Made by a program: the position numbers and the translations under genes
The notes under the pieces: model-generated
Told to the model about the DNA's origin: nothing
The model's input: only the letters and a program-made list of their open reading frames with translations
Databases searched by the model: none
Assembly (NCBI GenBank): GCA_047615875.1
Contig: JBLHGU010000005.1
Span: 3,432 to 67,431, forward strand
DNA length: 64,000 nt
Direction: 5' to 3'
From: Parasphingorhabdus sp.
Lineage (GTDB): Bacteria; Pseudomonadota; Gammaproteobacteria; Arenicellales; CAJQKF01
Shown: positions 5,889 through 24,209 of the stretch, piece by piece
How the letters are laid out: each line of letters opens with the position of its first letter
How positions within the stretch are numbered: position 1 is the first letter of the stretch

Positions 5889-6051
5889 CACTAATGCAGT
5901 TTGAGTACGAAAGAGATGATCTATCTACTGCTTTAATTTGACTCTTCTTCGGGGGTATGTTCGAATCATTGAGTAATTTCCAAATTCGGATCAAACCGAA
6001 AAAAGGTTATTACCCATCAGGTAGTAACTATAATCAACAAAGGAGTAAGCA

Positions 6052-7059: not shown

Positions 7060-7132
7060 GTTGTAGATAATCGAATTTCTGTCGGTCTCATGCAGATAAT
7101 TCTGGCTGAGATCGACAAGATTCATCCGACAA

Positions 7133-7168
7133 ACAATTCCACCTCAAGTTTGGTGGAATTGTTTTTTC
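7133..7168 (+). terminator. Rho-independent terminator/attenuator between dctP and dctQM
   Basis: Perfect 11-bp stem acaattccacc / ggtggaattgt (7133-7143 and 7152-7162) with an 8-nt loop, followed by a T-run at 7162-7167. Confidence 0.6.
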
Positions 7169-7231
7169 TACATCAACAAAAACTATCCAGATTTAAATTG
7201 AGGGTGGCAGATTGTTGCGAGGGGTACGAAG

Positions 7232-7780
7232 ATGGCAATTCTGAAGTGGCTTGACCGCCATTTAGAGGAATTGATCTGCTGTAGTGGTCTGGTAATTATT
7301 GCCGTCTGCGTGTTTATGCAAGTGGTAGCAAGATATGTGTTCGAGACCGCTATTCACTGGACCGAGGAAGTCGCCGCCATCAGCATGGTGTGGTCTGTAT
7401 ATATGGGCGCTTCACTGTGTGTTCGTGAACGATTCCACATACGAATTATTGTTGGCGTCAATGCGCTCCCCATGATTATGGGAAGAGGACTGATTTTTGT
7501 CGCCGACTTTTTCTGGGCTTTCTTCTGTGTCTTTATGATCATCGCTAGCTGGGACTATCTGGCGGTATTCTGGAAGTTCACCTCACGCAGCCCAAGCCTT
7601 GGTATCGACGAACTCTACCCACAATCGATCTTACTTATTGGTTATGGATTAATGCTAATTCGACTGGTACAAACTTATGTTCAGTGGCTGAAAAAAGGCG
7701 GCCAGGGTCTGCCAGGCCTACTGGTGGAAGATCTGGACAAAGTAGTTGACCAGGTTGAACAGAAGGAGCCTCAGGTTTGA
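7232..7780 (+). CDS. dctQ: TRAP transporter small permease (DctQ family)
   Basis: 182 aa with about four hydrophobic helices. The stop overlaps the dctM start (TTGA at 7777-7780). Confidence 0.8.
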   Translation: MAILKWLDRHLEELICCSGLVIIAVCVFMQVVARYVFETAIHWTEEVAAISMVWSVYMGASLCVRERFHIRIIVGVNALPMIMGRGLIFVADFFWAFFCVFMIIASWDYLAVFWKFTSRSPSLGIDELYPQSILLIGYGLMLIRLVQTYVQWLKKGGQGLPGLLVEDLDKVVDQVEQKEPQV

Positions 7781-9066
7781 ACTCGCTTACTATTCTTGCA
7801 CTGGTGTTTGTTGGGCTTACCATCATAGGCACACCACTATTTGTCTCAGTCGGTCTTACCACCGCACTGGCTCTGTATTTTATCGACATACCCTATACAT
7901 TAATGGCGCAAACGGGGTATTCCAGTTTAACGCCATTTCCGTTACTCACTATTCCACTGTTTATTCTAGCTGGTCGCTTGATGGAAGTAGGTGGTATGGC
8001 AACCCGCATGATTGCCATCGCTACCAACCTGGTTGGCGCCTATAGAGGCTCCATGGGTCTGGTGACCGTATTCGCCTGTATGTTGTTTGCGGCACTTTCA
8101 GGATCGGGGCCCGCCACGACTGCTGCAATTGGTTCAGTGACTGTACCGGCGATGAAAAAAGAAGGTTACGATGTACCATTTGCTGCGGCCATCACTGCCA
8201 GTGCCGGAGCACTAGGCAGCCTGATTCCACCCTCTAATCTAATGATTATCTATGGTCTGGTATCTGAGACTTCTATACCACGATTGTTTCTGGCCGGACT
8301 TATTCCCGGCGTGCTAGTTACCATGCTACTCATGGTCACCACCTATATCGTAGCCAGACGCCGCAATTATGGCGGTACCGGTCCGAAATTTTCCTGGCGG
8401 CCATTTTTACGCGCATCCTGGGAAGGCAAATGGTCCATTGGCGCACCGATTCTAATACTCGGTGGTATTTATGGTGGTGTATTCACACCTACTGAGGCTG
8501 CGGGTGTCGCAGTGTTTTATGCCTTGTTTATCGGCCTGTTTGTATACCGCGAGCTGACCATCGAAAAACTCATCAGCGCATTACGATTTACAGCTCTTTT
8601 AACCGGCATTCTTATTCTGCTTACACCGACCCTGGCCTTTGGTCAGTTAACTGCCTTTTATGATGTTCCGGCTGCGGTTCAAGAAACCATCACCGCACTG
8701 ACTGACAACCCAATTCTGGTGCTGCTTTTAATTGGTGTGTTTTATATTTTCATTGGCACATTCATGGAATCACTGGCGCAGATTATTTTGTTTACTGCGG
8801 TATTCCTACCACTGGTCACGTCACTGGGTGTAGATCCTGTGTTGTTCGGCGTGTTTACCGTTATTACCTGCGAAATCGGCTTTCTCACGCCTCCATTGGG
8901 CGCCAATCTGACTATTGCTGCGCGAATATCAGGGGTCTCTATAGAACGAATTTCGGTGGCAGTGCTGCCTTTTATTGGTGCTTATATTGTTGGCATGGTT
9001 ATCCTGATTCTGTTCCCTGACATCACCCTGTTTCTGCCAAACTGGGTATTCGGTATTTCAAAGTAG
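7777..9066 (+). CDS. dctM: TRAP transporter large permease (DctM family)
   Basis: 429 aa polytopic protein with typical DctM length and motifs. It is coupled to dctQ. Confidence 0.9.
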   Translation: MNSLTILALVFVGLTIIGTPLFVSVGLTTALALYFIDIPYTLMAQTGYSSLTPFPLLTIPLFILAGRLMEVGGMATRMIAIATNLVGAYRGSMGLVTVFACMLFAALSGSGPATTAAIGSVTVPAMKKEGYDVPFAAAITASAGALGSLIPPSNLMIIYGLVSETSIPRLFLAGLIPGVLVTMLLMVTTYIVARRRNYGGTGPKFSWRPFLRASWEGKWSIGAPILILGGIYGGVFTPTEAAGVAVFYALFIGLFVYRELTIEKLISALRFTALLTGILILLTPTLAFGQLTAFYDVPAAVQETITALTDNPILVLLLIGVFYIFIGTFMESLAQIILFTAVFLPLVTSLGVDPVLFGVFTVITCEIGFLTPPLGANLTIAARISGVSIERISVAVLPFIGAYIVGMVILILFPDITLFLPNWVFGISK

Positions 9067-11999: not shown

Positions 12000-12263
12000 G
12001 ATGTTGACGCCTCTTGGGGCTATGTCGGATTAAAAAAAGTGCGCGGATTTTACTCTTACAAATTGGTGAGTCAATAAAAATTAATGCTCAATCGAAATTG
12101 GAGATTTAATATAATTTCAACACTCTCACTCTTAGTATAATAAACGTTTCCATTGACACAATACCTGAACATTTAGGTCGCTTATTTCCAGACCACGGTT
12201 AAGTAGTCGCTACCAGACCTCCATTTTTAAAAATAATTCTGCAGCCAGATAATCTCGATAAAA

Positions 12264-13388
12264 ATGAAAAGACTAAATCACTTGCTGCGCTCAAAGCGAC
12301 GAATGAAAGTTTACGCTAATACGACTCTGTTGGTATTAGCTCTGATTTTTGCTGGCCTAATCTCTATATGGGTGTTTGTGCCGGTTTTTCCCAATGCCGT
12401 GGGCAAATTATGGACCTCAGTTTATGTTCAGGACTTTCGCGACGGAGCCAGTGATGCCATCGCATCAGCAAGCACGGGGAGTACTGATAGTCTGGCCGAT
12501 ATCATAGTGAGTGGCGCCTGGCAGCGTGTCAGTAAGGGTGATCGAGCATGGCCGGCAAAACGTAAAATGCTCCAGGCTTTAATCCAGCACCTTGAATCCT
12601 CTTCAGACTATTCTGCAATGCGGCACTGGGCAGATTACTGGAGGGCTCAGGATGCCAGGGATGTGGACGCTATGGCCTATTGGTACGAGGCCTTGCGCCA
12701 CACTGAAGAAGGTGAAGTTGAGGGCCAGGCCGGGCTTGCTAAGGCGCTGCTGCTATTTCCTGACAATTTTGAGTTGATACGTTTCAACTCTAATGTAATG
12801 GCTGAAAATGGCGATATAGAGACTTCGCGCAAACTACATGATTCCCTACTGAAACTTGCCACCTCTAACTGGCGATTGGAATGGCGTCGAAAATCTCGCC
12901 AGGTAGCATCATGGTATTTTGGGTTGGCTTTCTCACACCTGGCACGGTTAGATTTTTCTGCTGCATCTTCCAGTTTCGGATCCGCTTTCGATTTGGTCAG
13001 CAATTCTAAACTTCATCGTAAGTTAAAACGATTGAATGGGGAGCAGGCTTTTTCCATATCGTCTAGTGATCCACAATGCTGTAGCATTGAAATTGAAATT
13101 CCCACCACCAGCTCTACGATCAATATTTTTCCACCCGCCGTAACTGGGATCTCGGTATCCGATATCTCCATCACTGTTTCTGGAACAGAACATCGGGTTA
13201 GCACCGAGGATATTCAAGGTAGATACATGTTTCGGAATGGTAAGTGGTTTCACTCCGCAGGTGATGAGGAAAGCCATGTGCGTTTTTCTGTTATGCACAT
13301 TCTGGCTGGAGAAAATGTTCAAAAAGCACCCGCTACTCTTCGCTTCCGTGCAGAGATCAATCTAGTGCCAACTCCGGCTGAAGGCTGA
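12264..13388 (+). CDS. Membrane-anchored hypothetical protein; first gene of the CotH/VTC/DUF4956 operon
   Basis: It has a basic N-terminus plus one TM helix (TTLLVLALIFAGLISIWVFVPVF). A helical W/Y/A-rich middle follows, then a beta-rich C-terminus. I recognise no family. An 8-nt gap separates it from the CotH gene. Confidence 0.5.
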   Translation: MKRLNHLLRSKRRMKVYANTTLLVLALIFAGLISIWVFVPVFPNAVGKLWTSVYVQDFRDGASDAIASASTGSTDSLADIIVSGAWQRVSKGDRAWPAKRKMLQALIQHLESSSDYSAMRHWADYWRAQDARDVDAMAYWYEALRHTEEGEVEGQAGLAKALLLFPDNFELIRFNSNVMAENGDIETSRKLHDSLLKLATSNWRLEWRRKSRQVASWYFGLAFSHLARLDFSAASSSFGSAFDLVSNSKLHRKLKRLNGEQAFSISSSDPQCCSIEIEIPTTSSTINIFPPAVTGISVSDISITVSGTEHRVSTEDIQGRYMFRNGKWFHSAGDEESHVRFSVMHILAGENVQKAPATLRFRAEINLVPTPAEG

Positions 13389-13396
13389 GAAGGACG

Positions 13397-16198
13397 ATGC
13401 TTGGCCGGATATTTTTGTGGTCCTGGGTAGTCACCTTACCAATCACCATTATGGGTGGGTACTGGCTATATGCCACATTGGATCGCTTCCACACATTCGC
13501 TGTTCGATATACCGGAACTGAGGCCGGTGAGGGCAGCGGCATGGAACTTACTGCTATTGGCCAATATGAATTCGACATGCTGTGGCAAAGAATCCGAGCG
13601 GAAAAAAATCGCTTGCTTGGTAATGAGTCAACCTTAAAGCCTGTGCGATTGTATATTCCCGAATCTGATATTAAGGCACTTGAGTCCTATTTGCCGCAGT
13701 CCGGTTACCAGAATGTTAAGGGTGCTATGTTGGCCGACGGCAAGTTGCTAAAGGTTAAATACAGATACAGGGGTGATTCGGTTTATCGCTGGGCCTGGTA
13801 TAAAAAATCTCTTCGGGTAAAAACCAGTAAAAAACGACTTTACGAGGGCATGAGAACCTTCAACTTGTTGGCTGCACGTTCCGCGGAACAACTAAACAAT
13901 TATTTTTCCTATCAACTGGCAAACATGATGGGGCTGATAGCTCCCACAACAGAGTTGGTCAGAGTCTATTTAAACGGCAAAGACCGCGGCGTTCATTTTC
14001 AGGTTGAGCAAATTGAAGAAGTTTTTTTACGCAACCGAGGATTGATGCCAGGGGATATCTATCGCGGCGAGATGGTTGGTAAAGATCGCTTTGTAGGTGG
14101 CAACGTAGAATCTCTGTTTGATAGCATCGCCGGGTGGGATAAGGTCACGGTGAACAATCACTATGCTGAGGACTCATTTGCACCGTTGGAGAAATTGATT
14201 TCTCTGCTCAAGGCTCCAAACAATCCAGCGATACAAAACGAGTTGAGTAAATTTCTGGATATGGACGCCTGGGGATCTTTTAGTGTTTTTGAATCCCTTG
14301 CGCAAAGTACTCACATGGATGATACCCATAATTGGCGCCTATACTATGACCCGTGGCGTCAGAAGTTCTTGCCTGTAGTGTGGGACACCATGGGTTGGTA
14401 CAATGCTGTCCGCTCGGGGAAACTCCAGCCTTTGTCGATACCGAACACGCTAATAAGCACACTATTTCGCAATGGCGACTTTATAAGAGCACGCCATAAA
14501 GCGCTACTTAACGTGTTCGACAATCAAATAGATAAAAACTTCTTAAGGCTGGTGAACGATACCATCGAGGTTATGCAGCTGGAGAATAAAACCGACCCGT
14601 TTCTTCGTCCAACAGACCCTGTACGAGTTAAGCAGGCAATGCATGAGCTGGGTAGACTAATTCGTGCATCATTCGAGTTAATTGATTATAGAAATAGCAC
14701 CGCCAGCGATTTGGTGGAATATCACTTTTCCGAGAGTAACCTTGATCTCAAGTTTAGTGGCATATACCCTATAGACAGAATTAAGCTGACATTTGATCGG
14801 CCTGTACCTGAAGGTGGACAGGTATTGGCCCATTTCAACAATCCGGAGCCTAATGTGGTGGATGTCTCGGGCTTAACTTTTGTAAATGACAGAACGGTGG
14901 AAATTCATGCCAGTCTTTTACCCGACTTTGCGGTAGAACCCATTGCCAATAGCACTAGCAACAGGCGTGCTTCGTCTTTTGATATCGATCCTGGTGTAAT
15001 GCGATTTGAATTTGTGGATTTGGATGCAAATACTCAATTAAATAACCTCGCCACTACCAGCAATCATATACAAACAACATCAACTCCTGTTGATTCAATA
15101 ACCTCAGGCTCATACAGAACACTGCATTTTCCTATAGAAGAAAAACCCCTATCAAAACCCTTGCGTTGGAATGGCGAGATGCTGATCGGCAAAAGTATGG
15201 ACATTAATCAGGATCTATATATAGCGCCGGGTACCACCATTCGTTTGGCAGCTGGGGTTTCCGTAGTTACCCACGGAAAAGTAATCGCTGAAGGTAACTC
15301 ACAGGAAATCATACGGTTTATACCCGCCGCAACAGATGACGAACCCTGGGGCACATTCTCGATCCAGGGACGTGGAGCAGACGGCTCACAGTTCTCTCAT
15401 TGTGAATTCTCAGGCGGTAGTGGATTAAAGACTGACCTTTATGAGTACTCGGCTTTGTTTTCCGTACACAATGTAAAACAGGTCAAAATATCTGATTGCA
15501 CTTTTAAAAATAACGCTGTTGTTGATGACATGCTGCATGGTGTCTATTCGGATATCGTGTTTGATCGAGTGACGTTTCAAAATGCTATATCCGATGCGTT
15601 GGATCTGGATAATTCTGTGGCAACCATTAGCCATAGTCTATTTGACACAAGTGGTAACGATGGCATTGACCTAATGACAACCGAGGCCACCGTAATCGAC
15701 AGCACCATTGTGAACAACGGTGACAAAGGGATTTCAGTTGGCGAAGGCAGTCGGCTAACCGGTATAAATAACCGCGTGTCTGCAAACAAGATTGGCGTTC
15801 AGTCCAAAGATCGCTCTACCGCAATATTATTCAATAACACACTCAGTGACAACGAAGTCGCTTTGCACGTCTATCGCAAAAATTGGCAGTATGGAACAGG
15901 TGGACAAATTTTCGCAGCCAAGTCTGTGATAGAGAGTCAGTTTGATTCTGTGCCCGTGCTAGCAGAGAAGCGTTCTTCAATCGGTCTGTTTGATAACTTT
16001 ACCAATCATAGTATTAATAGCATTAAGGTTTTCAGCCAGCAGGTTGATGACCAAAACCGAAGTTCTGCCGCACAGCAAACTCTGCTATTCGACAAGAGTG
16101 TTGCTAGCCCAGAGATACAGCGAGCAATTCACGCTTTATCGAAGTCGCTACAAGATAAGATTTCGACCAGCAGACGCGGTATCAGCCAGCATGATTGA
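13397..16198 (+). CDS. CotH kinase-family protein with an N-terminal TM helix and C-terminal parallel beta-helix (PbH1-like) repeats
   Basis: The CotH-like region includes VKYRYRGDSVYRWAWYKKSLRVKTSKK...FNLL and continues to about residue 420. The C-terminal 300 aa carry repeated N/D-G-I/V-x-hydrophobic turns (NNAVVDDMLHG, SDALDLDNS, GNDGIDLMT, GDKGISVGE, NKIGVQS) typical of right-handed beta-helices. Confidence 0.8.
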   Translation: MLGRIFLWSWVVTLPITIMGGYWLYATLDRFHTFAVRYTGTEAGEGSGMELTAIGQYEFDMLWQRIRAEKNRLLGNESTLKPVRLYIPESDIKALESYLPQSGYQNVKGAMLADGKLLKVKYRYRGDSVYRWAWYKKSLRVKTSKKRLYEGMRTFNLLAARSAEQLNNYFSYQLANMMGLIAPTTELVRVYLNGKDRGVHFQVEQIEEVFLRNRGLMPGDIYRGEMVGKDRFVGGNVESLFDSIAGWDKVTVNNHYAEDSFAPLEKLISLLKAPNNPAIQNELSKFLDMDAWGSFSVFESLAQSTHMDDTHNWRLYYDPWRQKFLPVVWDTMGWYNAVRSGKLQPLSIPNTLISTLFRNGDFIRARHKALLNVFDNQIDKNFLRLVNDTIEVMQLENKTDPFLRPTDPVRVKQAMHELGRLIRASFELIDYRNSTASDLVEYHFSESNLDLKFSGIYPIDRIKLTFDRPVPEGGQVLAHFNNPEPNVVDVSGLTFVNDRTVEIHASLLPDFAVEPIANSTSNRRASSFDIDPGVMRFEFVDLDANTQLNNLATTSNHIQTTSTPVDSITSGSYRTLHFPIEEKPLSKPLRWNGEMLIGKSMDINQDLYIAPGTTIRLAAGVSVVTHGKVIAEGNSQEIIRFIPAATDDEPWGTFSIQGRGADGSQFSHCEFSGGSGLKTDLYEYSALFSVHNVKQVKISDCTFKNNAVVDDMLHGVYSDIVFDRVTFQNAISDALDLDNSVATISHSLFDTSGNDGIDLMTTEATVIDSTIVNNGDKGISVGEGSRLTGINNRVSANKIGVQSKDRSTAILFNNTLSDNEVALHVYRKNWQYGTGGQIFAAKSVIESQFDSVPVLAEKRSSIGLFDNFTNHSINSIKVFSQQVDDQNRSSAAQQTLLFDKSVASPEIQRAIHALSKSLQDKISTSRRGISQHD

Positions 16199-16964
16199 AG
16201 CGCTCAAAACAACGCAAGTAGAGAAATCTCCGCTTCATTTCGCGCGACTGGAATTCAAATACTTGTTACCGGCAGCTAAACGCAAACAGGTCGAAAAGGA
16301 CCTTCAGTACTTTTTGGAGTTCGATCCCTTTGTAGCTGACCGTGAAGAGCATCGATATATTGTACGTAGTCTATATTACGATGACCTGAGGTACAGTGCT
16401 TTTCACGATAAGATAGATGGTCTACACACCCGATCGAAATTCCGACTTCGAACCTACACAAAAAGTCCTCAGGAACCAGCACCATTATTTCTGGAGATTA
16501 AAGGTCGACACAACAACCTGGTATTCAAACATCGTGCCCCTGTTAACAGGCTTGGCTTTGACTGGGGTATATTAAGCGACCAGTCATTAACGAAAGCGCT
16601 GTTAGAAAACACCGCTGCCAGTAAGGTTCGCGATCAGTTTACCTTTCAGTTGTTTCGGAAAAATCTTCGACCTGTTGCATTAATCGATTATCAACGTCGG
16701 CCCTATATCAGCAAATATGACCCCGGTTTTCGCATCACATTTGATGAACAATTGCTCGCTACTCGAACAAGGTGTCTTTTTCCAGGACCTGAACTACAGC
16801 CCAGACAAGTTGTTGCCGGGTATACAGTGCTTGAGGTGAAGTTTCGTCACCACATGCCGTCCTGGTTTCATCAAGTGTTGCAAAGTCATGAACTGAGACG
16901 CATATCAATTTCTAAAATTGTCTCTGGCATGGAGGTCCTTGGTCTTGCGAAAGATGAACAATAG
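16191..16964 (+). CDS. VTC-domain (polyphosphate polymerase-like, CYTH/triphosphate-tunnel fold) protein
   Basis: FARLEFKYLL...YIVRSLYYDD...RSKFRLRTY...LFLEIKGRHN..FKHR matches the bacterial VTC-domain pattern. The likely start ATG 16191 overlaps the CotH stop (ATGATTGA). The ORF-track extension back to 15990 lies inside the CotH gene. Confidence 0.8.
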   Translation: MIEALKTTQVEKSPLHFARLEFKYLLPAAKRKQVEKDLQYFLEFDPFVADREEHRYIVRSLYYDDLRYSAFHDKIDGLHTRSKFRLRTYTKSPQEPAPLFLEIKGRHNNLVFKHRAPVNRLGFDWGILSDQSLTKALLENTAASKVRDQFTFQLFRKNLRPVALIDYQRRPYISKYDPGFRITFDEQLLATRTRCLFPGPELQPRQVVAGYTVLEVKFRHHMPSWFHQVLQSHELRRISISKIVSGMEVLGLAKDEQ

Positions 16965-17039
16965 ACCCGGGCATAAACAGAGCTTACTCAAATACATTGC
17001 CAGATTGAAAATACCACTTAAGCAACATAGAGGAATACT

Positions 17040-17723
17040 GTGGACACAATAGTACTCAACCCGGAAGGAAGTCTTCTTAACTACTCCAATACCGAGATGG
17101 TGGTAAATATTATTGCCGCCCTGGCTATAGGTGTCCTCCTGTCGCTGGTGTATAGATTTACCCACAAGGGCCTATCTTATTCCCAGTCCTATACACAAAC
17201 CCTGGTTTTTGTAACAGTTATTGTGGCCATTGTCATGATGGTTATTGGTAGTAGCCTGGCGCGGGCTTTTGCTTTGGTGGGTGCACTGTCAATTATTCGA
17301 TTCAGAACCGTATTGAAAGATACCAAGGATATGGCTTATGTATTCAGCTCGTTGGCGTTAGGAATGGCGGCGGGAACGGGTAACTATTTTCTCGCTACAG
17401 TCGGTTTTCTGTTTATAGCCTCTATCGCGCTAATAATGAAGCAAACGAATTTTGGGGCGATTTACAAAAGTGAATTTATTCTGCGCTTCAGACTCAGCCA
17501 CGATGGTGATAATCAGAGCCATATAAAAACCATTGAGGGGGTATGTAAGCGATTTGACGTTTTGCACATGGAACCTTCAGGAGACAATAAAAGTGTCAGT
17601 CTTACCTACGATATAGCGTTAAGAGACGACATAACTGCGGATGAGTTAACCCGTAAAATGGGCTCATTAGATAATGTTTCAGAAGTAGTTTTAATTGCTT
17701 CGACGAATGATGTAGATTACTGA
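17040..17723 (+). CDS. DUF4956-family membrane protein
   Basis: Contains three or four TM helices and the characteristic GALSIIRFRT...KDTKDMAYVF...LGMAAGTG segment, followed by a soluble C-terminal domain. GTG start after agagga. Confidence 0.75.
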   Translation: MDTIVLNPEGSLLNYSNTEMVVNIIAALAIGVLLSLVYRFTHKGLSYSQSYTQTLVFVTVIVAIVMMVIGSSLARAFALVGALSIIRFRTVLKDTKDMAYVFSSLALGMAAGTGNYFLATVGFLFIASIALIMKQTNFGAIYKSEFILRFRLSHDGDNQSHIKTIEGVCKRFDVLHMEPSGDNKSVSLTYDIALRDDITADELTRKMGSLDNVSEVVLIASTNDVDY

Positions 17724-17786: not shown

Positions 17787-19286
17787 CTAGCGGCGATCTT
17801 TTGACAAGAACCAGAACAACGAAATTACTGACAGAGCCATTAAGACAAGAGCAATCGGATAGTCAACAATCCGTGTCAAATCTGCATTCATCAATGCCAA
17901 ACTTTGCGACAGGGAAATCTCGAAGCGTGGACCTAAAAAGAAGGCGATGATAAATATCACAACGGAGTATCCGAAGCTCGTCATCAAATAACCAATGGCC
18001 GCAAATATCAGCATGACGGCCACACCAAAGATGCCACCAGTCGCCATAGATACACCAACAATGCATAACAACAAGGCACTGGCAAAAATAACTGACTCCG
18101 GAGCAGATACCACTTTCACCCAGAATCGCAAGCCTATTTGGCCGACCCAAAGATTGAGAAAGTTTGCCATAAGCATGGCTCCGAACAGTCCGTATATCAG
18201 GCGGCCCTGATCCTGGAACAATAACGGCCCGGGTTGAATTCCGTGGATCATGAAAGCGCTAATAATCAGCGCTGCGCCCACACTACCGGGTATGCCTAAG
18301 GTTAATAAAGGAATCAGATTAGCCCCAACCACCGCAGAGTTAGCCGATTCTGCTGCGGCGATACCCTGCAGGTTTCCCTTACCAAAACTCTCAGGATTTT
18401 TCGATGCGGCCTTGGCCATCGCGTAGGACATAAACGCCGCAGCAGTAGATCCTATACCCGGTAAAGCACCCAGAATAGTGCCAATACCTGCGCCTCTTAA
18501 CAGAGTAAAACGACAGGCCCAATATTCTGACCAGGTTACTCGTTGATCGTCGGGATTACCTGTGTCTTTAATTTCTACCGCTGATTTTACACTGCCATGA
18601 ATATGCGAGAGTCGACGCAGAATTTCAGAAATCGCCAACATACCAATAGCCACCGATGCCAGGGGTAAACCATCGTAGAGCTCATAATAACCAAAGATCA
18701 GACGGGGATTATAATTTTCAGGATCGGCACCAATGCTGGCACATAGCAAACCAAACGCAGCTGCCATGATGCCCTTTACCAGGGAATCACCAACCAATCC
18801 AGATAAGACCGAGAAGGCAAAAATCATCAATGCAAAAACTTCAACCGGTCCCATGCGCAAGGCCAGGATGGCCAGAGGTGCTGATACACTAATCAGTACA
18901 ATGTCGCTAAAGGTATCACCGGTGACCGATGAAAATAGTGCCATCTTAGTTGCCTTCAATGGCTTGCCCTGACGTGCCAGCGGATAACCATCCAAAGCAG
19001 TGGCCGCGGCGTCCGGTGTGCCCGGTGTATTCATAAGAACAGCCGGTACTGCCCCTCCTACCAATCCACCTTTGTTAACGCCAACCAGAAATGCAATGGC
19101 TGGCAACGTATCAAGACCAAAGGTAAAGGGTATAGCAATGGCCATCGCCATGATGGGACCAATACCAGGCACAGCGCCAACAAACTGGCCAACTACCACA
19201 CCGAATAGCACAAAGGCCAGATTCCACAGAGTGAAGGCGTCTGAAAATCCTGCCAGAATGGTCGCAAGATCAACCAACGTATTCAC
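17787..19286 (-). CDS. tctA: Tripartite tricarboxylate transporter large permease
   Basis: 499 aa polytopic protein with typical TctA length and Gly-rich helices. It abuts tctB (19286/19287). Confidence 0.9.
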   Translation of the reverse strand: MNTLVDLATILAGFSDAFTLWNLAFVLFGVVVGQFVGAVPGIGPIMAMAIAIPFTFGLDTLPAIAFLVGVNKGGLVGGAVPAVLMNTPGTPDAAATALDGYPLARQGKPLKATKMALFSSVTGDTFSDIVLISVSAPLAILALRMGPVEVFALMIFAFSVLSGLVGDSLVKGIMAAAFGLLCASIGADPENYNPRLIFGYYELYDGLPLASVAIGMLAISEILRRLSHIHGSVKSAVEIKDTGNPDDQRVTWSEYWACRFTLLRGAGIGTILGALPGIGSTAAAFMSYAMAKAASKNPESFGKGNLQGIAAAESANSAVVGANLIPLLTLGIPGSVGAALIISAFMIHGIQPGPLLFQDQGRLIYGLFGAMLMANFLNLWVGQIGLRFWVKVVSAPESVIFASALLLCIVGVSMATGGIFGVAVMLIFAAIGYLMTSFGYSVVIFIIAFFLGPRFEISLSQSLALMNADLTRIVDYPIALVLMALSVISLFWFLSKDRR

Positions 19287-19712
19287 TCATGGTAAAGCCC
19301 GCTCTAGTGCTCGTTCAACTAGAAACCAAATCACCAGCGGCATCCCAGCAACCCCAGCCAATAACCATAAAGGTCGTCTTTCGCCAATAACCAGCATGAG
19401 AATCAGGGCAATTACCGGGGCGGTATAAATAAACCCCAGTAAAGACATTACGTAGAGCCCCAGAGCCAGGATCATCAAAAAGAATCCAGCACGAAAAAAC
19501 ACCTTAGAATTTTCGGCCTGAAAGTTGGTGGGTTTTATTAGTAACAACAAACCACCTATGCTGATAACTACAGCAACGGCATAGGGAATGGTATCTGGCG
19601 ATACCCAACTATCTTCAGATGAATCTACATAAACCGGTATGATCCAGATCGCCAACAGCAACCCGAAGACCAGGAAAAATAGCCCACTGATACGATCGGC
19701 ATTGATAAACAT
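19287..19712 (-). CDS. tctB: Tripartite tricarboxylate transporter small subunit
   Basis: 141 aa, four TM helices, located between tctC and tctA. Confidence 0.75.
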   Translation of the reverse strand: MFINADRISGLFFLVFGLLLAIWIIPVYVDSSEDSWVSPDTIPYAVAVVISIGGLLLLIKPTNFQAENSKVFFRAGFFLMILALGLYVMSLLGFIYTAPVIALILMLVIGERRPLWLLAGVAGMPLVIWFLVERALERALP

Positions 19713-19769
19713 AGATAACCACTCACTAAAAACCTTCGTTGAGTAACTTACTCAACGGAGGATTAGTCA

Positions 19770-20717
19770 TTAGTTTCCGAAAAGAACCTTCACGTTTTCA
19801 ATACCGTCTACCAACATCTTCTTGGTCCCTTCTGGCCCAAGATTCAGAACCTCGGTAGTGGCAGCATTACGGACAATTTCAGCTACCTGGTCTGATGCGA
19901 TAGCGTTACCTAGCGCATCAGTTAAAGCAGCTAACGCAGCAGCGTCAGTGCCTGCGGTAGTGGCAAAGTAGAAATAGGGATCTAGAAAAACGTCATAACC
20001 GGCTTCGCGAACAGTAGGCGTGTCTGGTGCGTAGCTATGACGAGTATCGTTGGCACTGGCAATCATTTTAAAATCACCGGACTCCAGATATTTGATATGA
20101 GTCCCGGCAGAGAAGCCGGCCATAACCTGACCACCTAATAGAAGCTTCTGGGTCTCTGCTTCACCCTTGGTTGAAACAAATCTGAATTTTGCACCAGCTG
20201 TTTTATCCACAACACTCAAGAGCAGCTTTTGCGGGGGCGCACCAAAACCGATAGCCATTCCGTCATTCGCTTTGGCATGTTCGATCATACCCTGTAGATC
20301 ATCAAATGGCGCATCGGCACGTGCAATCAATGCTAATTGAGCCTTGGCCACGGTGCCCAGATAGTCAAAACTATCCAGGTCAAAACCAAGCTCCGCACCG
20401 CGCTTAACAATATTAATCATCACCGGCATATTTACACCCATACCGATTACCATGCCTTTCGCAGGCATTTTTGCGATGCCTGTAAACATAGCAACACCAC
20501 CACCACCGGTTTTATTTTCAGCGATAATATTCCAGCCGGTTTGCTCTTTCATTACCTTGGCAATTACCCGACCCATAACATCCGTCGAGCCACCGGCACC
20601 AAAACCTATCTGTAGTTTCAAGGGGCCCTGGGGTTTCCAGTCCGCAGCATGACCAGCGCTCGCGGCAATAATCATTGCGCCGGAAACTGCGGCCAGCATA
20701 ATTTGCTTAATAGTCAT
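19770..20717 (-). CDS. tctC: Tripartite tricarboxylate transporter substrate-binding protein (TctC/Bug family)
   Basis: Signal peptide MTIKQIMLAAVSGAMIIAASAGHA and the Bug-family GFGAGGSTD motif. I prefer the start at 20717 (ggaga RBS 8 nt upstream) over the ORF-track start at 20765. Confidence 0.85.
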   Translation of the reverse strand: MTIKQIMLAAVSGAMIIAASAGHAADWKPQGPLKLQIGFGAGGSTDVMGRVIAKVMKEQTGWNIIAENKTGGGGVAMFTGIAKMPAKGMVIGMGVNMPVMINIVKRGAELGFDLDSFDYLGTVAKAQLALIARADAPFDDLQGMIEHAKANDGMAIGFGAPPQKLLLSVVDKTAGAKFRFVSTKGEAETQKLLLGGQVMAGFSAGTHIKYLESGDFKMIASANDTRHSYAPDTPTVREAGYDVFLDPYFYFATTAGTDAAALAALTDALGNAIASDQVAEIVRNAATTEVLNLGPEGTKKMLVDGIENVKVLFGN

Positions 20718-20781
20718 CAAACTTTCTCCAAAAAAAGAATTTATAAATTGAATTTCTTGCTGCACAACTTAGTGCAACAAT

Positions 20782-21279
20782 TCAGGCAACGGCCTTATTA
20801 CCCTTAGATGTCATCCCTCTTGCTTGCAAAGACGCCTGGGCAATTCGCTCGGACATAGCCAGGTACTGTTTTATTTCTGTCAGCGTAAATTCATCATCAA
20901 TTGTGCTACAGAATTGCTCAATAATTGGCGAATAAATCTTAATTTGTTGCCTGCCTTTTCGCGTCAGGCTAAACAGTCTGTTACGACGATCTTCGACTCC
21001 TCGCTCAGTTTTAATGAACTTGCGCTCTTCCAGGCTACGCAAAGAGCGACTTACCTGGGCCTGCTGCATTTTAGTAAAGGCTACTATTTCCTTCTGGGTA
21101 GTGAGGCCCGCATCAAAAAGCTTGAGACAAATACGCCATTCAATCAGAGATAGTTCACCGAATTCGTTAAACACCTTCTCTAATTCCCCGCGAACTAATT
21201 GTGATAACCGCTGCGTTGCAATCGCAACTGAGCTGGCAATACGAGGCATGGTTTGAAGATCGAGGTAGTCGTTTGACAC
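20782..21279 (-). CDS. MarR-family transcriptional regulator
   Basis: 165 aa with a winged-HTH core (LIEWRICLKLF...TQKEIVAFTKMQQAQVSRSLRSLEERKFI...DRRNRLFSLT). Divergent from the aminotransferase operon. Confidence 0.85.
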   Translation of the reverse strand: MSNDYLDLQTMPRIASSVAIATQRLSQLVRGELEKVFNEFGELSLIEWRICLKLFDAGLTTQKEIVAFTKMQQAQVSRSLRSLEERKFIKTERGVEDRRNRLFSLTRKGRQQIKIYSPIIEQFCSTIDDEFTLTEIKQYLAMSERIAQASLQARGMTSKGNKAVA

Positions 21280-21318
21280 TGTTTAAAAATTATCCAGGTA
21301 GACAATGTTATTTTGAAG

Positions 21319-21338
21319 TTATATGCTGAGTCATATAA
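21319..21338. promoter_or_regulatory. Candidate MarR operator overlapping a candidate promoter
   Basis: Perfect 7-bp inverted repeat ttatatg-N6-catataa in the 82-bp divergent intergenic region. It overlaps a tataat hexamer (21334-21339) and follows ttgaag (21313-21318). Confidence 0.35.
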
Positions 21339-21361
21339 TGTCAACACATATAAAATAGCAC

Positions 21362-22552
21362 ATGCTCGAAACCCTTGCCGAAAGCCAGCCCGAAGCACTC
21401 CTGCAGATTTCGATAGATTTTGCCGCTGACACACGCACTGAAAAAATTGACCTTGGCGTGGGCGTCTACCGCAACCAGCAAGGCCAAACTCACATACTGA
21501 ACACAGTAAAAGATGCCGAGGCCAGACTGGTCGAACAGCAGCAGACCAAATCCTATGTTGGATTGCTAGGTGATACACAATTCAATAAAGCGATATCTGA
21601 TTTGATACTTGGGCCGCAACTGGTTATGGACCGTCTTGCCGTTTTGCAAACCCCTGGTGGTAGTGCAGCCTTACGCTTGCTGTTCGAACTGGTTAAAAAT
21701 GCTAATCCTAAAGCCAACCTTTGGTTACCAGACCCAAGCTGGGCAAATCATCTACCAACCGTGCAAACCGTAGGTCTAAACTGCGATATTTATCCTTACT
21801 ACGACGCGAACACAAGCAGTCTAAATTTTTCCGCCATGACCGAGGCCCTGCAGAAACTTTCCGGTAATGACGTAGTGCTCCTGCATAGTTGTTGCCACAA
21901 TCCCACCGGTGCAGACCTTAGCGCTGACCAATGGGATATTGTCGCAGACCTGGCACAGAAAAATGGCTTCATTCCCCTGGTGGATATGGCCTATCACGGT
22001 TTTGCGAACGGTCTAAACGCTGATGCCTATGGTGTCAGGCAACTGGCCAGCAAGTGCCCGGAACTATTACTGGCTTATTCCTGTTCGAAGAACTTTGCCA
22101 TTTATCGCGAACGAACCGGTATTGCGTTGGTGCAATCAAAAACTCATGAAAATGCTGCACGGGCACTAGGACAAATGAAAGCCGTGGTACGTGCCAACTA
22201 TTCGATGCCGCCCGACCATGGTGCCGCAGTTGTACGAATAATATTGCAGGATAAGAGCTTAAGAGAAAGCTGGGCATTGGAACTAGAATCTATACAACAA
22301 AGAATTCAAGGTCTACGCAAATGTTTAGCGAATGAGTTTCGACGCCAAACGGGATCAAATCACTATGCACGCATTACTCAACAGAACGGCATTTTTTCAA
22401 TGTTGAATCTAAGTCCGGATCAAGTTCAGGTTTTACGTGACCACTTCGCTATTTATATGCCGAGGGATGGCAGAATCAACATCGCAGGGCTTAATGAAAG
22501 CAACGTGGCTTACTTTGTCACAGCTATTACAAGCTTCAATCAAGAATTTTAA
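21362..22552 (+). CDS. Class I (AspC/TyrB-type) aromatic/aspartate aminotransferase
   Basis: 396 aa. It has the PLP-lysine signature SCSKNFAIYRERTG and an N-terminal IDLGVGVY motif. Confidence 0.85.
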   Translation: MLETLAESQPEALLQISIDFAADTRTEKIDLGVGVYRNQQGQTHILNTVKDAEARLVEQQQTKSYVGLLGDTQFNKAISDLILGPQLVMDRLAVLQTPGGSAALRLLFELVKNANPKANLWLPDPSWANHLPTVQTVGLNCDIYPYYDANTSSLNFSAMTEALQKLSGNDVVLLHSCCHNPTGADLSADQWDIVADLAQKNGFIPLVDMAYHGFANGLNADAYGVRQLASKCPELLLAYSCSKNFAIYRERTGIALVQSKTHENAARALGQMKAVVRANYSMPPDHGAAVVRIILQDKSLRESWALELESIQQRIQGLRKCLANEFRRQTGSNHYARITQQNGIFSMLNLSPDQVQVLRDHFAIYMPRDGRINIAGLNESNVAYFVTAITSFNQEF

Positions 22553-22579
22553 ACTCCGGCAATATCTGGTCCATTTCCC

Positions 22580-24208: not shown

Positions 24209-24209
24209 A

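What the first reader, a model, noticed from the sequence alone, without database searches (positions are those of the whole stretch)
12264..17723. Four-gene operon of orphan membrane protein, CotH kinase-like protein, VTC domain and DUF4956: a possible PPK-independent polyphosphate/phosphotransfer machine at the envelope
Seen in sequence:
- Four co-directional genes are tightly packed: an 8-nt gap at 13388/13397, an 8-nt overlap ATGATTGA at 16191-16198, and a 75-nt gap before 17040.
- They follow a 264-bp AT-rich promoter region shared divergently with an MFS gene.
- Gene 3 carries the VTC-domain pattern (EFKYLL, SLYYDD, RSKFRLRTY, LFLEIKGRHN).
- Gene 4 carries the DUF4956 signature GALSIIRFRT within a 3-4 TM protein.
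- Gene 2 is a TM-anchored CotH-family protein.

Established knowledge:
- In eukaryotes the Vtc4 tunnel domain polymerises polyphosphate from ATP and threads it through the membrane-embedded VTC subunits.
- CotH is an atypical protein kinase of the Bacillus spore coat.
- Bacterial polyP synthesis is normally attributed to PPK1/PPK2.
- To my knowledge no function has been demonstrated for this bacterial gene combination.

Inference: the VTC-domain protein plus DUF4956 could be a split bacterial analogue of the VTC synthase/translocase. It would deliver polyP, or a phosphorylated product, to the periplasm or surface. There the membrane-anchored CotH/beta-helix protein and the orphan first gene would act on it.
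Basis: partly seen in the sequence, partly recalled or inferred. Interest (0 to 1): 0.72.

Follow-up and report, generated by a model that had tools for sequence, protein, structure and literature searches.

The report
Bacterial VTC-like polyphosphate envelope operon
A conserved four-gene bacterial operon pairs a yeast-type (Vtc4-like) polyphosphate polymerase and a membrane partner with two periplasm-facing proteins (a kinase-like/sugar-binding fusion and a TPR scaffold); this suggests, without proving it, a way to make polyphosphate without PPK and use it outside the cytoplasm.

Summary
Four co-directional genes lie at 12264-17723 with the stated junctions, and the Pfam calls hold (CotH 3e-23, Beta_helix 7e-13, VTC 2e-38, DUF4956 5e-17).

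Gene 3 models confidently as a Vtc4-type tunnel (pLDDT 90.7; Foldseek E 1e-13). It keeps every Vtc4 catalytic residue checked, all invariant in 42 orthologues.

The cassette is conserved across phyla in unrelated flanks. DUF4956 follows VTC in 67 of 69 assessable loci. The CotH-beta-helix fusion precedes it in 48 of 59.

Three corrections:
- Gene 1 is not an orphan. It is a fast-evolving, membrane-anchored periplasmic TPR protein.
- DUF4956 shows no similarity to Vtc1/Vtc4 membrane domains. It has 5 helices plus a cytoplasmic ACT-like domain, weakly MgtC/YhiD-like.
- The CotH/VTC/DUF4956 trio was already described beside Gram-positive pel operons (2020, 2024), with no function shown.

This pel-independent Gram-negative form, with a TPR partner and a beta-helix fusion, appears undescribed in the literature I could search.

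PolyP export and its use by the periplasmic CotH domain is the best-fitting mechanism but remains inference (about 0.4). Interest 0.6. Novelty: new variant of a known but uncharacterised module.

The parts
12000..12263 (.). 264-bp AT-rich divergent intergenic region between the MFS gene (minus strand) and gene 1; the presumed promoter region of the operon.
   Evidence: GC is 35.6% against 46.9% for the window. The sequence was read. The consensus promoter scan found no more sites than shuffles. No Rfam family matched.
12264..13388 (+). Gene 1: membrane-anchored, periplasm-facing TPR-repeat protein (374 aa) with a variable C-terminal beta-rich region; fast-evolving.
   Evidence: The protein alone has no Pfam hit. 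Profile A3 of positional homologues hits consensus TPR proteins at E 2e-29 and BcsC TPR (5xw7) at 4e-6. TPR_19 is found in 8 of 28 members. Iterated HMM searching reaches 39 of 45 ORFs lying immediately upstream of CotH in other genomes. The N-terminus carries 7 Lys/Arg before a hydrophobic helix, which predicts N-in, C-out (sequence).
13397..16198 (+). Gene 2: 933-aa bitopic membrane protein, with an N-terminal anchor followed by a CotH kinase-like domain and a right-handed beta-helix.
   Evidence: Pfam results. The same fusion lies immediately upstream of VTC in 48 of 59 assessable loci.
13409..13477 (+). Gene 2 transmembrane anchor (about aa 5-27) with the conserved motif W-x-W-x-x-T-L-P.
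   Evidence: In most of the 50 sequences compared, the helix is preceded by net positive charge (typically +2 to +6), while the 15 residues after it are close to neutral. This predicts N-in, C-out.
13763..14560 (+). CotH kinase-like domain (aa 123-388).
   Evidence: Pfam CotH E 3e-23. B. cereus CotH 5jd9 matches at E 3.5e-14. R125, G126, S138, R140, E204 and D330 are invariant, and H311, N312 and D318 are conserved in 48-49 of 50 sequences. The probable catalytic-loop Asp, D308, is conserved in 40 of 50.
15230..15976 (+). Right-handed parallel beta-helix (CASH/NosD-like) domain (about aa 612-860) with conserved Asp/Lys residues spread along the domain.
   Evidence: Beta_helix is found in 24 of 24 orthologues, NosD in 20 of 24 and the pectate-lyase-like RHGA/epimerase family in 7 of 24. 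Invariant residues are listed. No PDB sequence homologue was found.
16191..16964 (+). Gene 3: soluble (cytoplasmic) Vtc4-like triphosphate-tunnel polyphosphate polymerase domain protein (257 aa). It has no SPX domain and no TM domain.
   Evidence: Pfam VTC E 1.8e-38, full length. The AF2 model has pLDDT 90.7. Foldseek ranks Vtc4 structures first (3g3r, 3g3q, 5iiq, 7ytj, 8i6v; E 1e-13 to 1e-11, TM 0.63-0.70), above other tunnel enzymes. K23, R85, R87, K104, Y167, R169, R181, E215, S241 and K242 align with Vtc4 K200, R264, R266, K281, Y359, R361, R373, E426, S457 and K458, and all are invariant.
17040..17723 (+). Gene 4: DUF4956 inner-membrane protein (227 aa).
   Evidence: Pfam DUF4956 E 4.7e-17. 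Orthologues are 63-86% identical and nearly all exactly 227 aa long. It follows VTC directly in 67 of 69 assessable loci.
17088..17447 (+). Gene 4 membrane domain: five predicted helices (aa 17-136). The invariant basic loops THKGLSYSQS and SIIRFRTVLKDTKD are predicted to be cytoplasmic.
   Evidence: AF2 secondary structure, invariant columns and charge distribution. Pfam MgtC gives a weak collinear match at E 0.037.
17472..17699 (+). Gene 4 C-terminal ferredoxin/ACT-like domain (aa 145-220), predicted to be cytoplasmic.
   Evidence: Foldseek matches ribosomal protein S6, the NikR C-domain, IlvN and aspartate-kinase ACT domains (E 1e-3 to 2e-2, target TM 0.5-0.66). hhalign aligns it with the E. 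coli YhiD C-terminus at probability 37%.

Best explanation
This is a self-contained envelope module built around a bacterial Vtc4-type polyphosphate polymerase.

Proposed mechanism, with each step marked:
1. Gene 3 is a cytoplasmic triphosphate-tunnel enzyme. The tunnel fold is predicted with high confidence, and the match to Vtc4 and the intact catalytic residues are shown by comparison. It is inferred to polymerise polyP from ATP.
2. Gene 3 works with gene 4, a very highly conserved five-helix inner-membrane protein. Gene 4 has invariant basic cytoplasmic loops and a cytoplasmic ACT-like domain. The obligate pairing of the two genes is shown.
3. An oligomer of gene 4 is inferred to receive the growing chain and pass it to the periplasmic face, as the VTC membrane ring does in yeast. 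It would do so with a different, MgtC-like fold.
4. On the periplasmic side, where ATP is lacking, two membrane-anchored partners act. Their topology is predicted, not measured.
5. The CotH kinase-like domain of gene 2 is inferred to use the exported polyP as phosphoryl donor, or to attach it, on a glycan or envelope polymer held by its fused beta-helix domain.
6. The TPR protein (gene 1) is inferred to scaffold the complex or the substrate, as TPR proteins do in synthase-dependent polymer export systems.
For: Domain identities.

Gene 3:
- The AF2 model has pLDDT 90.7.
- Its best structural matches are Vtc4 tunnel domains. They score well above YgiF, ThTPase and CYTH-type tunnel enzymes.
- All ten catalytic or substrate-binding positions that align with Vtc4 are invariant in 42 orthologues. 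R264, R266 and E426 are the residues mutated to inactivate VTC in PMC9911596.

Linkage:
- The same four genes sit in unrelated flanks in three genomes.
- 440 loci encoding a relative were found in the scan of one genome for each of 185,579 GTDB species.
- Among the 80 best loci, DUF4956 is adjacent in 67 of 69 and the CotH-beta-helix fusion in 48 of 59. A gene-1 homologue is found in 39 of 45.
- These loci span Gamma- and Alphaproteobacteria, Planctomycetota, Desulfobacterota, Acidobacteriota, Verrucomicrobia and Campylobacterales.

Topology:
- Positive charge precedes the anchors of gene 1 and gene 2.
- In gene 4, both basic loops and the C-terminal domain fall on the same side in a 5-TM model.
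- Gram-positive CotH partners are secreted.

Glycan theme:
- The beta-helix is present in 24 of 24 orthologues.
- Firmicute plasmid copies sit inside polysaccharide gene clusters.
- GT2 glycosyltransferases flank the cassette in about 12 loci, and purple-acid-phosphatase-like metallophosphoesterases in 8.
- The trio lies next to pel operons in Gram-positives.
Against: - No biochemical data exist for any member.
- Gene 4 shows no detectable similarity to the Vtc1/Vtc3/Vtc4 membrane domains. Its only weak affinity is to MgtC/YhiD. From my own knowledge, MgtC is known as a regulatory binding protein, not a channel.
- No outer-membrane component is part of the cassette.
- The probable catalytic Asp of CotH (D308) is missing in 10 of 50 orthologues. 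No CotH-family enzyme is known to use polyP.
- Nine of 59 loci, mostly Planctomycetota, have VTC with no CotH anywhere in the stretch fetched; seven of these keep DUF4956. CotH is therefore an accessory, not a core part.
- Deleting the S. intermedius homologues gave no Pel or aggregation phenotype. Those authors suggested that the polyP stays in the cytoplasm.
Confidence: 0.4

Rival explanations
1. Membrane-tethered cytoplasmic polyP synthesis under envelope control. Gene 4 would be an MgtC-like regulator or anchor, with an ACT-like ligand sensor, that recruits and gates the gene 3 polymerase. The polyP stays in the cytoplasm. Genes 1 and 2 would be periplasmic sensors or enzymes that signal through conserved transmembrane helices, not consumers of polyP.
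For: - Gene 4 has an MgtC/YhiD-like architecture with weak profile matches, and some JGI/IMG annotations name its homologues YhiD.
- The ACT-like domain suggests ligand regulation. It could play the sensing role that the SPX domain plays in Vtc4.
- The conserved W-x-W-x-x-T-L-P anchor of gene 2 fits contacts within the membrane.
- The S. intermedius authors favoured cytoplasmic polyP.
- No outer-membrane export component is present.
Against: - Gram-positive CotH partners are released into the secretome and so cannot signal through a TM helix.
- This model does not explain why a kinase-fold enzyme in an ATP-free compartment is so consistently linked to a polyP polymerase.
- The invariant basic loops of gene 4 resemble the positively charged belt at the entrance of the VTC channel, though this is only an analogy.
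Confidence: 0.25
2. Gene 3 is a tunnel enzyme with a different chemistry. Candidates are a tri- or polyphosphatase, a nucleotide cyclase, or a transferase that places phosphate on a non-phosphate acceptor such as a lipid or sugar carrier. It would supply a small phosphorylated intermediate rather than long-chain polyP.
For: - The triphosphate-tunnel superfamily is catalytically diverse (PMC9582702 abstract).
- Foldseek also matches YgiF, ThTPase and CYTH proteins, though with lower scores.
- Sequence identity to Vtc4 is only 15-18%.
Against: - Vtc4 is the best structural match by a clear margin (TM 0.70 against 0.48 or less).
- Every polymerase residue checked is conserved, including the equivalents of K200 and K458.
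- The Pfam VTC model matches end to end.
Confidence: 0.15
3. CotH acts as an ordinary ATP-dependent Ser/Thr protein kinase on envelope proteins, as in Bacillus spore coats. Its adjacency to VTC/DUF4956 would reflect shared regulation only.
For: - There is significant similarity to B. cereus CotH.
- The residue aligned with the B. subtilis mutation site D251 is invariant and the catalytic-loop Asn is nearly so. That these two act as metal ligands is my own inference from canonical kinase motifs.
- CotH kinase activity is established in B. subtilis (PMC7821199).
Against: - The predicted periplasmic location leaves no ATP source.
- Linkage is tight, often with overlapping genes, across phyla and in both gene orders.
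- The fusion to a carbohydrate-type beta-helix points to a glycan rather than a protein substrate.
Confidence: 0.08

Closest known systems
Eukaryotic VTC complex (yeast Vtc4/Vtc3/Vtc1; PDB 3G3Q, 7YTJ, 8I6V)
   Same: - Gene 3 has the Vtc4 tunnel fold and all catalytic residues checked.
- Like VTC, the polymerase is obligately partnered with a small multi-helix membrane protein that has conserved basic residues on the cytoplasmic face.
   Different: - There is no SPX sensor domain.
- The tunnel domain is not fused to TM helices.
- There is no Vtc1/DUF202-type three-helix subunit. The partner is DUF4956, with 5 helices and an ACT-like domain and no detectable similarity to VTC TM domains.
- The destination would be the periplasm rather than a vacuole.
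- There are additional periplasmic CotH-beta-helix and TPR partners.
cotH / polyP-polymerase / DUF4956 accessory genes of Gram-positive pel operons (Whitfield et al. 2020, PMC7112168; S. intermedius SIR_1594-1592, bioRxiv 10.1101/2024.04.20.589940)
   Same: - The same three families are contiguous.
- CotH is extracytoplasmic, the VTC-like protein is cytoplasmic with catalytic residues intact, and the membrane protein has TM helices plus an ACT domain and was likened to MgtC.
- The function is unknown.
   Different: - This form is in Gram-negative bacteria and is not next to pel genes. The preprint reported not finding the trio outside pel operons.
- CotH is membrane-anchored and fused to a beta-helix rather than FN3.
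- A TPR protein replaces the DUF4832 glycoside hydrolase.
- Identity to Firmicute VTC proteins is only 22-27%.
Bacillus CotH spore-coat kinase (PDB 5JD9)
   Same: Pfam CotH domain with E 3.5e-14 to 5jd9. The conserved RGD, KKS, E-Q-x-x-E and H-N motifs and the W-D motif are present.
   Different: - The location is periplasmic and membrane-anchored, in non-sporulating Gram-negative bacteria.
- The catalytic-loop Asp is shifted by one position and absent in 20% of orthologues.
- It carries a C-terminal beta-helix.
- Substrate and phosphoryl donor are unknown.
MgtC/YhiD/SapB family membrane proteins
   Same: An N-terminal multi-helix membrane domain is followed by a cytoplasmic ACT-like domain. 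There are weak collinear matches (Pfam MgtC E 0.037; hhalign to E. coli YhiD at probability 37%).
   Different: The scores are below family thresholds. DUF4956 has its own invariant motifs (THKGLSYSQS, SIIRFRTVLKDTKD). MgtC is not known to partner with a polyP polymerase.
Synthase-dependent exopolymer secretion systems (alginate, cellulose, Pel, PNAG)
   Same: The logic is the same: a cytoplasmic-face polymerase, an inner-membrane partner, a periplasmic TPR scaffold (BcsC, PelB or AlgK-like) and a periplasmic beta-helix modifying enzyme (AlgG or NosD-like fold).
   Different: The polymer would be inorganic polyphosphate, not a polysaccharide. There is no GT2 synthase, no c-di-GMP receptor and no outer-membrane porin in the cassette. 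This is analogy only.

Membership tests
VTC-domain / Vtc4-type triphosphate-tunnel polyP polymerase (PF09359) | Profile match above the curated threshold, over the full domain length | tested here: met
   132.8 bits against a cut-off of 23, covering profile positions 2-234 of 235.
VTC-domain / Vtc4-type triphosphate-tunnel polyP polymerase (PF09359) | Closed beta-barrel tunnel fold closest to Vtc4 | tested here: met
   AF2 pLDDT 90.7. The top 13 Foldseek matches are all Vtc4, Vtc2 or VTC complex chains, with E 1e-13 to 4e-10.
VTC-domain / Vtc4-type triphosphate-tunnel polyP polymerase (PF09359) | Catalytic and substrate residues K200, R264, R266, K281, E426 and K458 (Vtc4 numbering) | tested here: met
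   K23, R85, R87, K104, E215 and K242 align with them and are invariant in 42 orthologues.
VTC-domain / Vtc4-type triphosphate-tunnel polyP polymerase (PF09359) | PolyP polymerase activity from ATP | not testable with these tools
   This needs an enzyme assay.
Eukaryotic VTC complex | SPX sensor domain, C-terminal three-helix TM domain and Vtc1 subunits forming the channel | tested here: not met
   Gene 3 is 257 aa with the VTC domain only. The gene 4 model gave no VTC TM chain among the 50 Foldseek matches listed.
DUF4956 (PF16316) | Profile match above the curated threshold | tested here: met
   62.7 bits against a cut-off of 30.6.
MgtC/YhiD family (PF02308) | Profile match above the curated threshold | tested here: not met
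   14.8 bits against a cut-off of 31.4, E 0.037, though the match is collinear over 4-117 of 121 profile positions. hhalign to YhiD gives probability 37%.
MgtC/YhiD family (PF02308) | Membrane domain followed by a cytoplasmic ACT-like domain | tested here: met
   The AF2 model has five helices followed by a beta-alpha-beta-beta-alpha-beta domain. Foldseek matches ACT and ferredoxin-like domains.
CotH kinase family (PF08757) | Profile match above threshold and similarity to the solved CotH structure | tested here: met
   83.2 bits against a cut-off of 23.8. 5jd9 matches at E 3.5e-14.
CotH kinase family (PF08757) | Presumed metal-binding Asp (aligned with B. subtilis D251) and catalytic-loop Asn | tested here: met
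   D330 is present in 50 of 50 sequences and N312 in 48 of 50. The mapping to B. subtilis numbering is inferred from the B. cereus alignment and from the D228Q and D251A mutants cited in PMC7821199. The metal-ligand role is my own inference from canonical kinase motifs.
CotH kinase family (PF08757) | Catalytic Asp (B. subtilis D228) | tested here: inconclusive
   With no gap, the column that corresponds to it is hydrophobic. The adjacent D308 is conserved in 40 of 50 sequences. The Asp position also shifts by one residue in Firmicute CotH proteins.
Right-handed parallel beta-helix (PF13229, CASH/NosD-like) | Profile match above threshold, conserved in orthologues | tested here: met
   48.9-51.5 bits against a cut-off of 25.9. 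Present in 24 of 24 orthologues.
TPR repeat proteins | Recognisable TPR repeats | tested here: met
   Met at the family-profile level only. A3 against consensus TPR proteins gives E 2e-29, and TPR_19 and related families hit 8 of 28 members. The window protein alone has no Pfam hit.
Synthase-dependent exopolysaccharide secretion systems | Membrane GT2 synthase, c-di-GMP receptor and outer-membrane porin | tested here: not met
   None of these lies in the cassette or its immediate flanks in the window, L001 or L002. GT2 genes are adjacent in only about 12 related loci.
Known anti-phage defence systems (PADLOC) | Any protein matching a defence-system model | tested here: not met
   No hits for any of the four proteins.

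The most novel reading that the evidence does not exclude
Bacteria of many phyla possess a PPK-independent, VTC-type machine that synthesises polyphosphate at the inner membrane and extrudes it through an MgtC-like DUF4956 oligomer. It would supply an ATP-free compartment with a phosphoanhydride donor for extracytoplasmic CotH-family phosphotransferases that phosphorylate, or polyphosphorylate, envelope glycans. If true, this would at once explain how secreted CotH-type kinases are energised. It would also give a biochemical role to the DUF4956/MgtC-like fold and show that the 'eukaryote-type' polyP polymerase has a functional bacterial counterpart.
Probability: 0.25. Interest if true: 0.85.

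Novelty: new variant of a known kind. Interest (0 to 1): 0.6.

Why it matters
- PolyP synthesis in bacteria is attributed to PPK1 and PPK2, and VTC is still described as the eukaryote-type enzyme (PMC12526157). A conserved bacterial Vtc4-like polymerase with its own dedicated membrane partner would add a third route. It would also bear on the origin of the VTC system.
- CotH-family proteins are mostly extracytoplasmic in bacteria and fungi. How a kinase fold works without ATP is unexplained. A tight genetic link to a polyP polymerase offers a concrete, testable answer.
- DUF4956 and the MgtC-like fold lack a known biochemical mechanism.
- The module is common enough to matter: 440 loci were found in a scan of about 186,000 species-representative genomes for this subfamily alone.
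- It is present in cultured strains (Roseovarius aestuarii KCTC 22174, Saltatorellus ferox Poly30, Marinicella sediminis F2), so the hypothesis can be tested directly.

Tried and rejected
- **Vtc1/Vtc4 TM homology of gene 4.** Foldseek of the AF2 model against the PDB matched only the C-terminal ACT/ferredoxin-like domain. phmmer against the PDB gave nothing meaningful. Rejected as unsupported.
- **Gene 1 as an orphan.** Rejected. It has database homologues, positional homologues and TPR repeats.
- **Larger conserved island.** The flanks of the window and L002 share Pfam families (aminotransferase, TPP enzyme, amidohydrolase) but are only 23-29% identical, so they are not orthologous. The unit is the four genes.
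- **Defence system.** No PADLOC hit.
- **Regulatory RNA or riboswitch in the leader.** No Rfam hit at gathering threshold anywhere in the window, and only a chance-level hit in the leader.
- **Promoter and terminator consensus scans.** Not above shuffled expectation, so uninformative.
- **PDB sequence homologue for the beta-helix.** None found.
- **VTC-DUF4956 fusion in L034.** The single long ORF spanning both genes is a frame artefact of a high-GC genome. The two tblastn hits lie in different frames (coordinates).
- **Nguyen et al. 2016 (PMC4922149) for CotH active-site numbering.** The paper is not held. Numbering was inferred from PMC7821199 and the 5jd9 alignment instead.
- **Structure model of gene 2.** Not possible.


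Full report
**1. The observation**

- g1: 12264-13388, 374 aa.
- g2: 13397-16198, 933 aa.
- g3: 16191-16964, 257 aa.
- g4: 17040-17723, 227 aa, GTG start.

The junctions are as described. There is an 8-nt gap between g1 and g2. The stop of g2 and the start of g3 overlap in ATGATTGA. A 75-nt spacer precedes g4. The 264-bp region shared with the divergent MFS gene has 35.6% GC, against 46.9% for the window.

The consensus N-termini of orthologues support the ATG at 16191, not the longer TTG ORF from 15990, and the GTG at 17040.

Pfam confirms every domain call above its curated cut-off: CotH (E 3e-23), Beta_helix (7e-13, with weaker NosD and GH28), VTC (2e-38, end to end) and DUF4956 (5e-17). 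NCBIfam and PADLOC add nothing. The promoter and terminator consensus scans are no better than shuffles. No Rfam family or tRNA is present.

**2. Gene 3 is a Vtc4-type tunnel enzyme with an intact active site**

A profile of 42 orthologues matches the yeast Vtc4 catalytic domain in the PDB (3g3q, E 8e-6).

Residue correspondence was derived as follows. The numbering offset between the 3g3q chain and full-length Vtc4 was taken as 185, assuming that the crystallised construct starts near residue 189. This offset places Arg at 264 and 266 and Glu at 426, the residues mutated in PMC9911596. The 5iiq alignment agrees once its own tag offset is allowed for.

| g3 residue | Vtc4 residue |
|---|---|
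| K23 | K200 |
| R85 / R87 | R264 / R266 |
| K104 | K281 |
| Y167 / R169 | Y359 / R361 |
| R181 | R373 |
| E215 | E426 |
| S241 / K242 | S457 / K458 |

All of these are invariant columns in the orthologue alignment. R264, R266 and E426 are the residues mutated to inactivate the VTC complex in PMC9911596.

The AlphaFold2 model is confident (pLDDT 90.7, pTM 0.87). Its 13 best PDB matches are all Vtc4, Vtc2 or VTC complex chains (E 1e-13 to 4e-10, query TM up to 0.70). Other tunnel enzymes follow at a distance: YgiF at TM 0.48, then ThTPase and CYTH proteins.

The protein has no SPX domain and no TM segment, so it is a stand-alone cytoplasmic tunnel domain.

**3. Gene 4 is not Vtc1-like**

Its orthologues are remarkably conserved. 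They are 63-86% identical and nearly all exactly 227 aa long, with 76 invariant columns.

The model (pLDDT 76) has five helices (residues 17-136) followed by a beta-alpha-beta-beta-alpha-beta domain (145-220).

Foldseek finds only ferredoxin/ACT-like matches for the C-terminal domain: ribosomal protein S6, NikR, IlvN and aspartate-kinase ACT. No VTC membrane chain appears among the 50 matches listed.

Three weak leads point instead to MgtC/YhiD:
- Pfam MgtC gives a weak but collinear match (E 0.037, below threshold).
- hhalign to E. coli YhiD aligns the last helix and the C-terminal domain at 37% probability.
- JGI/IMG names some homologues 'YhiD'.

The S. intermedius preprint reached the same MgtC comparison.

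In a five-helix model, both basic loops (R39/H42/K43 and R87/R89/K93/K96) and the ACT-like domain fall on one side, and the acidic N-terminus falls on the other. By the positive-inside rule this gives N-out, C-in. The invariant motifs THKGLSYSQS and SIIRFRTVLKDTKD would then face the cytoplasm, where gene 3 resides.

**4. Genes 2 and 1 face the periplasm**

In most of the 50 g2 sequences compared, the N-terminal helix carries a conserved W-x-W-x-x-T-L-P motif. It is preceded by net positive charge, and the residues after it are close to neutral. This predicts that the CotH and beta-helix domains lie outside the inner membrane.

*CotH domain.* It resembles B. cereus CotH (5jd9, E 3.5e-14). It retains R125-G126-D127, K136-K137-S138, R140, E204-Q205-x-x-E208, H311-N312, D318 and D330.
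- D330 corresponds to B. subtilis D251 and N312 to the catalytic-loop Asn. I take both to be metal ligands by analogy with canonical kinases.
- With no gap, the column equivalent to the catalytic D228 is hydrophobic. The neighbouring D308 is conserved in 40 of 50 sequences.
- An alignment that includes two Firmicute CotH proteins shows that this Asp shifts by one position within the family.
- Catalytic competence is therefore probable but not certain.

*Beta-helix.* It is present in 24 of 24 orthologues, with NosD matches in 20 and rhamnogalacturonase/epimerase-like matches in 7. Conserved Asp and Lys residues are spread along the domain. It has no close PDB sequence relative.

*Gene 1.* It has 7 Lys/Arg before its single helix, which predicts N-in with the bulk of the protein outside. 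It evolves fast, at 13-52% identity to its homologues, but it is not an orphan.
- It has 8 database relatives.
- An iterated profile reaches 39 of 45 ORFs in the same position upstream of CotH in other genomes.
- The family profile is unmistakably TPR: E 2e-29 to consensus TPR proteins, 4e-6 to the TPR domain of BcsC, and Pfam TPR_19 in 8 of 28 members.

**5. Conservation of the cassette**

The same four genes occur in a 4.9-Mb alphaproteobacterial contig (L001) and a 618-kb contig (L002). Their flanks are unrelated to those of the window. Flanking genes that share Pfam families are only 23-29% identical.

A scan of one genome per GTDB species found 440 loci encoding a close relative of gene 3. 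The best 80 come from Gamma- and Alphaproteobacteria, Planctomycetota, Desulfobacterota, Acidobacteriota, Verrucomicrobia and Campylobacterales.

Among the loci with enough sequence to assess:
- DUF4956 lies directly downstream in 67 of 69.
- A CotH-beta-helix fusion lies directly upstream in 48 of 59. Two more have it elsewhere in the locus.

The exceptions are mostly Planctomycetota and define VTC + DUF4956 as the core pair. In one of them (L046), a TPR / Peptidase_MA protein occupies the upstream position.

All-against-all clustering of the neighbouring ORFs finds no fifth universal gene. It does show two recurrent accessories:
- purple-acid-phosphatase-like metallophosphoesterases in 8 loci;
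- large GT2 glycosyltransferases in about 12 loci.

In annotated Firmicute plasmids the trio appears in two settings. In Pseudobutyrivibrio xylanivorans pNP95 it sits inside a polysaccharide gene cluster, with the same CotH/VTC overlap. In a Planococcus maritimus plasmid it lies next to a HEAT-repeat protein and a glycosyltransferase.

**6. Literature**

The association is not new.
- Whitfield et al. 2020 (PMC7112168) listed cotH, a poly-phosphate polymerase, DUF4956 and DUF4832 as accessory genes contiguous with Gram-positive pel operons.
- C. perfringens NELoc-2 carries CotH and two VTC-type genes.
- A 2024 preprint on S. intermedius (10.1101/2024.04.20.589940) gives these results:
  - It modelled SIR_1594 (secreted CotH-FN3), SIR_1593 (Vtc4-like) and SIR_1592 (four TM helices plus ACT, MgtC-like).
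  - Deleting each gene had no effect on Pel production or aggregation.
  - The authors proposed that the polyP stays cytoplasmic.
  - They reported not finding the trio outside pel operons.

I found no paper in the held library that shows an activity for any bacterial member. A 2025 review still treats VTC as the eukaryote-type enzyme and PPK as the prokaryote-type enzyme.

The Gram-negative, pel-independent form seen here has a membrane-anchored CotH-beta-helix fusion and a TPR partner. It appears to be an undescribed variant of that module.

**7. Mechanism**

*Shown or strongly supported:*
- a Vtc4-like catalytic domain with an intact active site;
- an obligate, highly constrained membrane partner;
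- two periplasm-facing partners, by prediction;
- a recurrent glycan context.

*Inferred:* polyP is made at the inner face, is handed to or through a DUF4956 oligomer, and is used outside as phosphoryl donor or adduct by the CotH domain. The substrate would be a glycan bound by the beta-helix, with the TPR protein as scaffold.

The main attraction of this reading is that it explains why a kinase fold placed in an ATP-free compartment is so persistently linked to a polyP polymerase. The link holds in both Gram-negative and Gram-positive lineages and in both gene orders.

*Weaknesses:*
- There is no evidence that DUF4956 conducts anything. From my own knowledge, its only remote relative, MgtC, acts by binding other proteins.
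- No outer-membrane component is present.
- The CotH catalytic Asp is imperfectly conserved.
- Some lineages lack CotH.
- The streptococcal deletions gave no phenotype.

I put this mechanism at about 0.4. The rivals are:
- membrane-tethered cytoplasmic polyP synthesis under periplasmic control, about 0.25;
- a non-polymerase tunnel chemistry, about 0.15;
- an unrelated ATP-dependent protein kinase, about 0.08.

**8. Verdict**

The finding is real, well delimited and biologically coherent.

It is a new variant of a known but uncharacterised module. It is directly testable in cultured carriers: Roseovarius aestuarii KCTC 22174, Saltatorellus ferox Poly30 and Marinicella sediminis F2.

Noticed in passing
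L024:7725-9251(-), L032:6291-8384(+), L037:1030-2628(+) and five further loci: A purple-acid-phosphatase-like calcineurin-type metallophosphoesterase, with an FN3-like N-terminal domain, lies directly next to the cassette in 8 related loci. It could be an extracytoplasmic (poly)phosphatase that belongs to the system in some lineages.
   Followed up: partly
L010:7043-9418(+), L030:542-2779(+), L033:202-2280(+), L029:2430-3137(+) and others: Large GT2-family glycosyltransferases flank the cassette in about 12 related loci. Some are about 700-790 aa, and at least one has two GT2-type regions. This echoes the polysaccharide context seen in Firmicutes.
   Followed up: partly
L034, L045, L046, L047, L067, L071, L085 (VTC + DUF4956 only); L062, L065 (VTC only): These loci, mostly Planctomycetota, keep VTC without any CotH gene in the stretch fetched; all but L062 and L065 also keep DUF4956. 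In L046 the upstream position is taken by a 994-aa TPR + Peptidase_MA_2 protein, and an MBOAT acyltransferase lies downstream on the opposite strand. L062 and L065 lack DUF4956 and instead have an 857-aa ORF with no Pfam match after VTC.
   Followed up: partly
L088 (P. xylanivorans plasmid pNP95, 7221-10360) and L089 (Planococcus maritimus plasmid, 5389-8245): Annotated plasmid copies of the trio. One is embedded among GT2, GT4 and GT61 glycosyltransferases, acyltransferases and pyruvyl transferases. The other has the gene order VTC-DUF4956-CotH, followed by a hypothetical protein, a HEAT-repeat protein and a glycosyltransferase. The module is therefore plasmid-borne in some hosts, and a helical-repeat partner recurs.
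   Followed up: partly
window 13409-13477 (gene 2 anchor): The transmembrane helix itself carries a sequence motif (W-x-W-x-x-T-L-P) that is conserved across phyla. This is unusual for a mere anchor and suggests a specific contact within the membrane, possibly with gene 4.
   Followed up: no
window 12264-13388 compared with 16191-17723: Evolutionary rates within one operon differ strikingly. Gene 1 homologues are 13-52% identical, while gene 3 is 55-76% and gene 4 is 63-86% identical in overlapping sets of related genomes and metagenomic contigs. The C-terminal third of gene 1 has no conserved columns.
   Followed up: partly
window 17787-25775: The downstream neighbours are a TctA/TctB/TctC tripartite tricarboxylate-type transporter (minus strand), a MarR-type regulator, an aminotransferase, a TPP-dependent enzyme and a sulfatase. 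These Pfam families come from the identical locus L004. Together they look like a separate organic acid or sulfonate catabolic cluster that is not conserved next to the cassette elsewhere.
   Followed up: partly
window 1-64000: No tRNA, tmRNA or Rfam family at gathering threshold occurs anywhere in the 64-kb window.
   Followed up: yes
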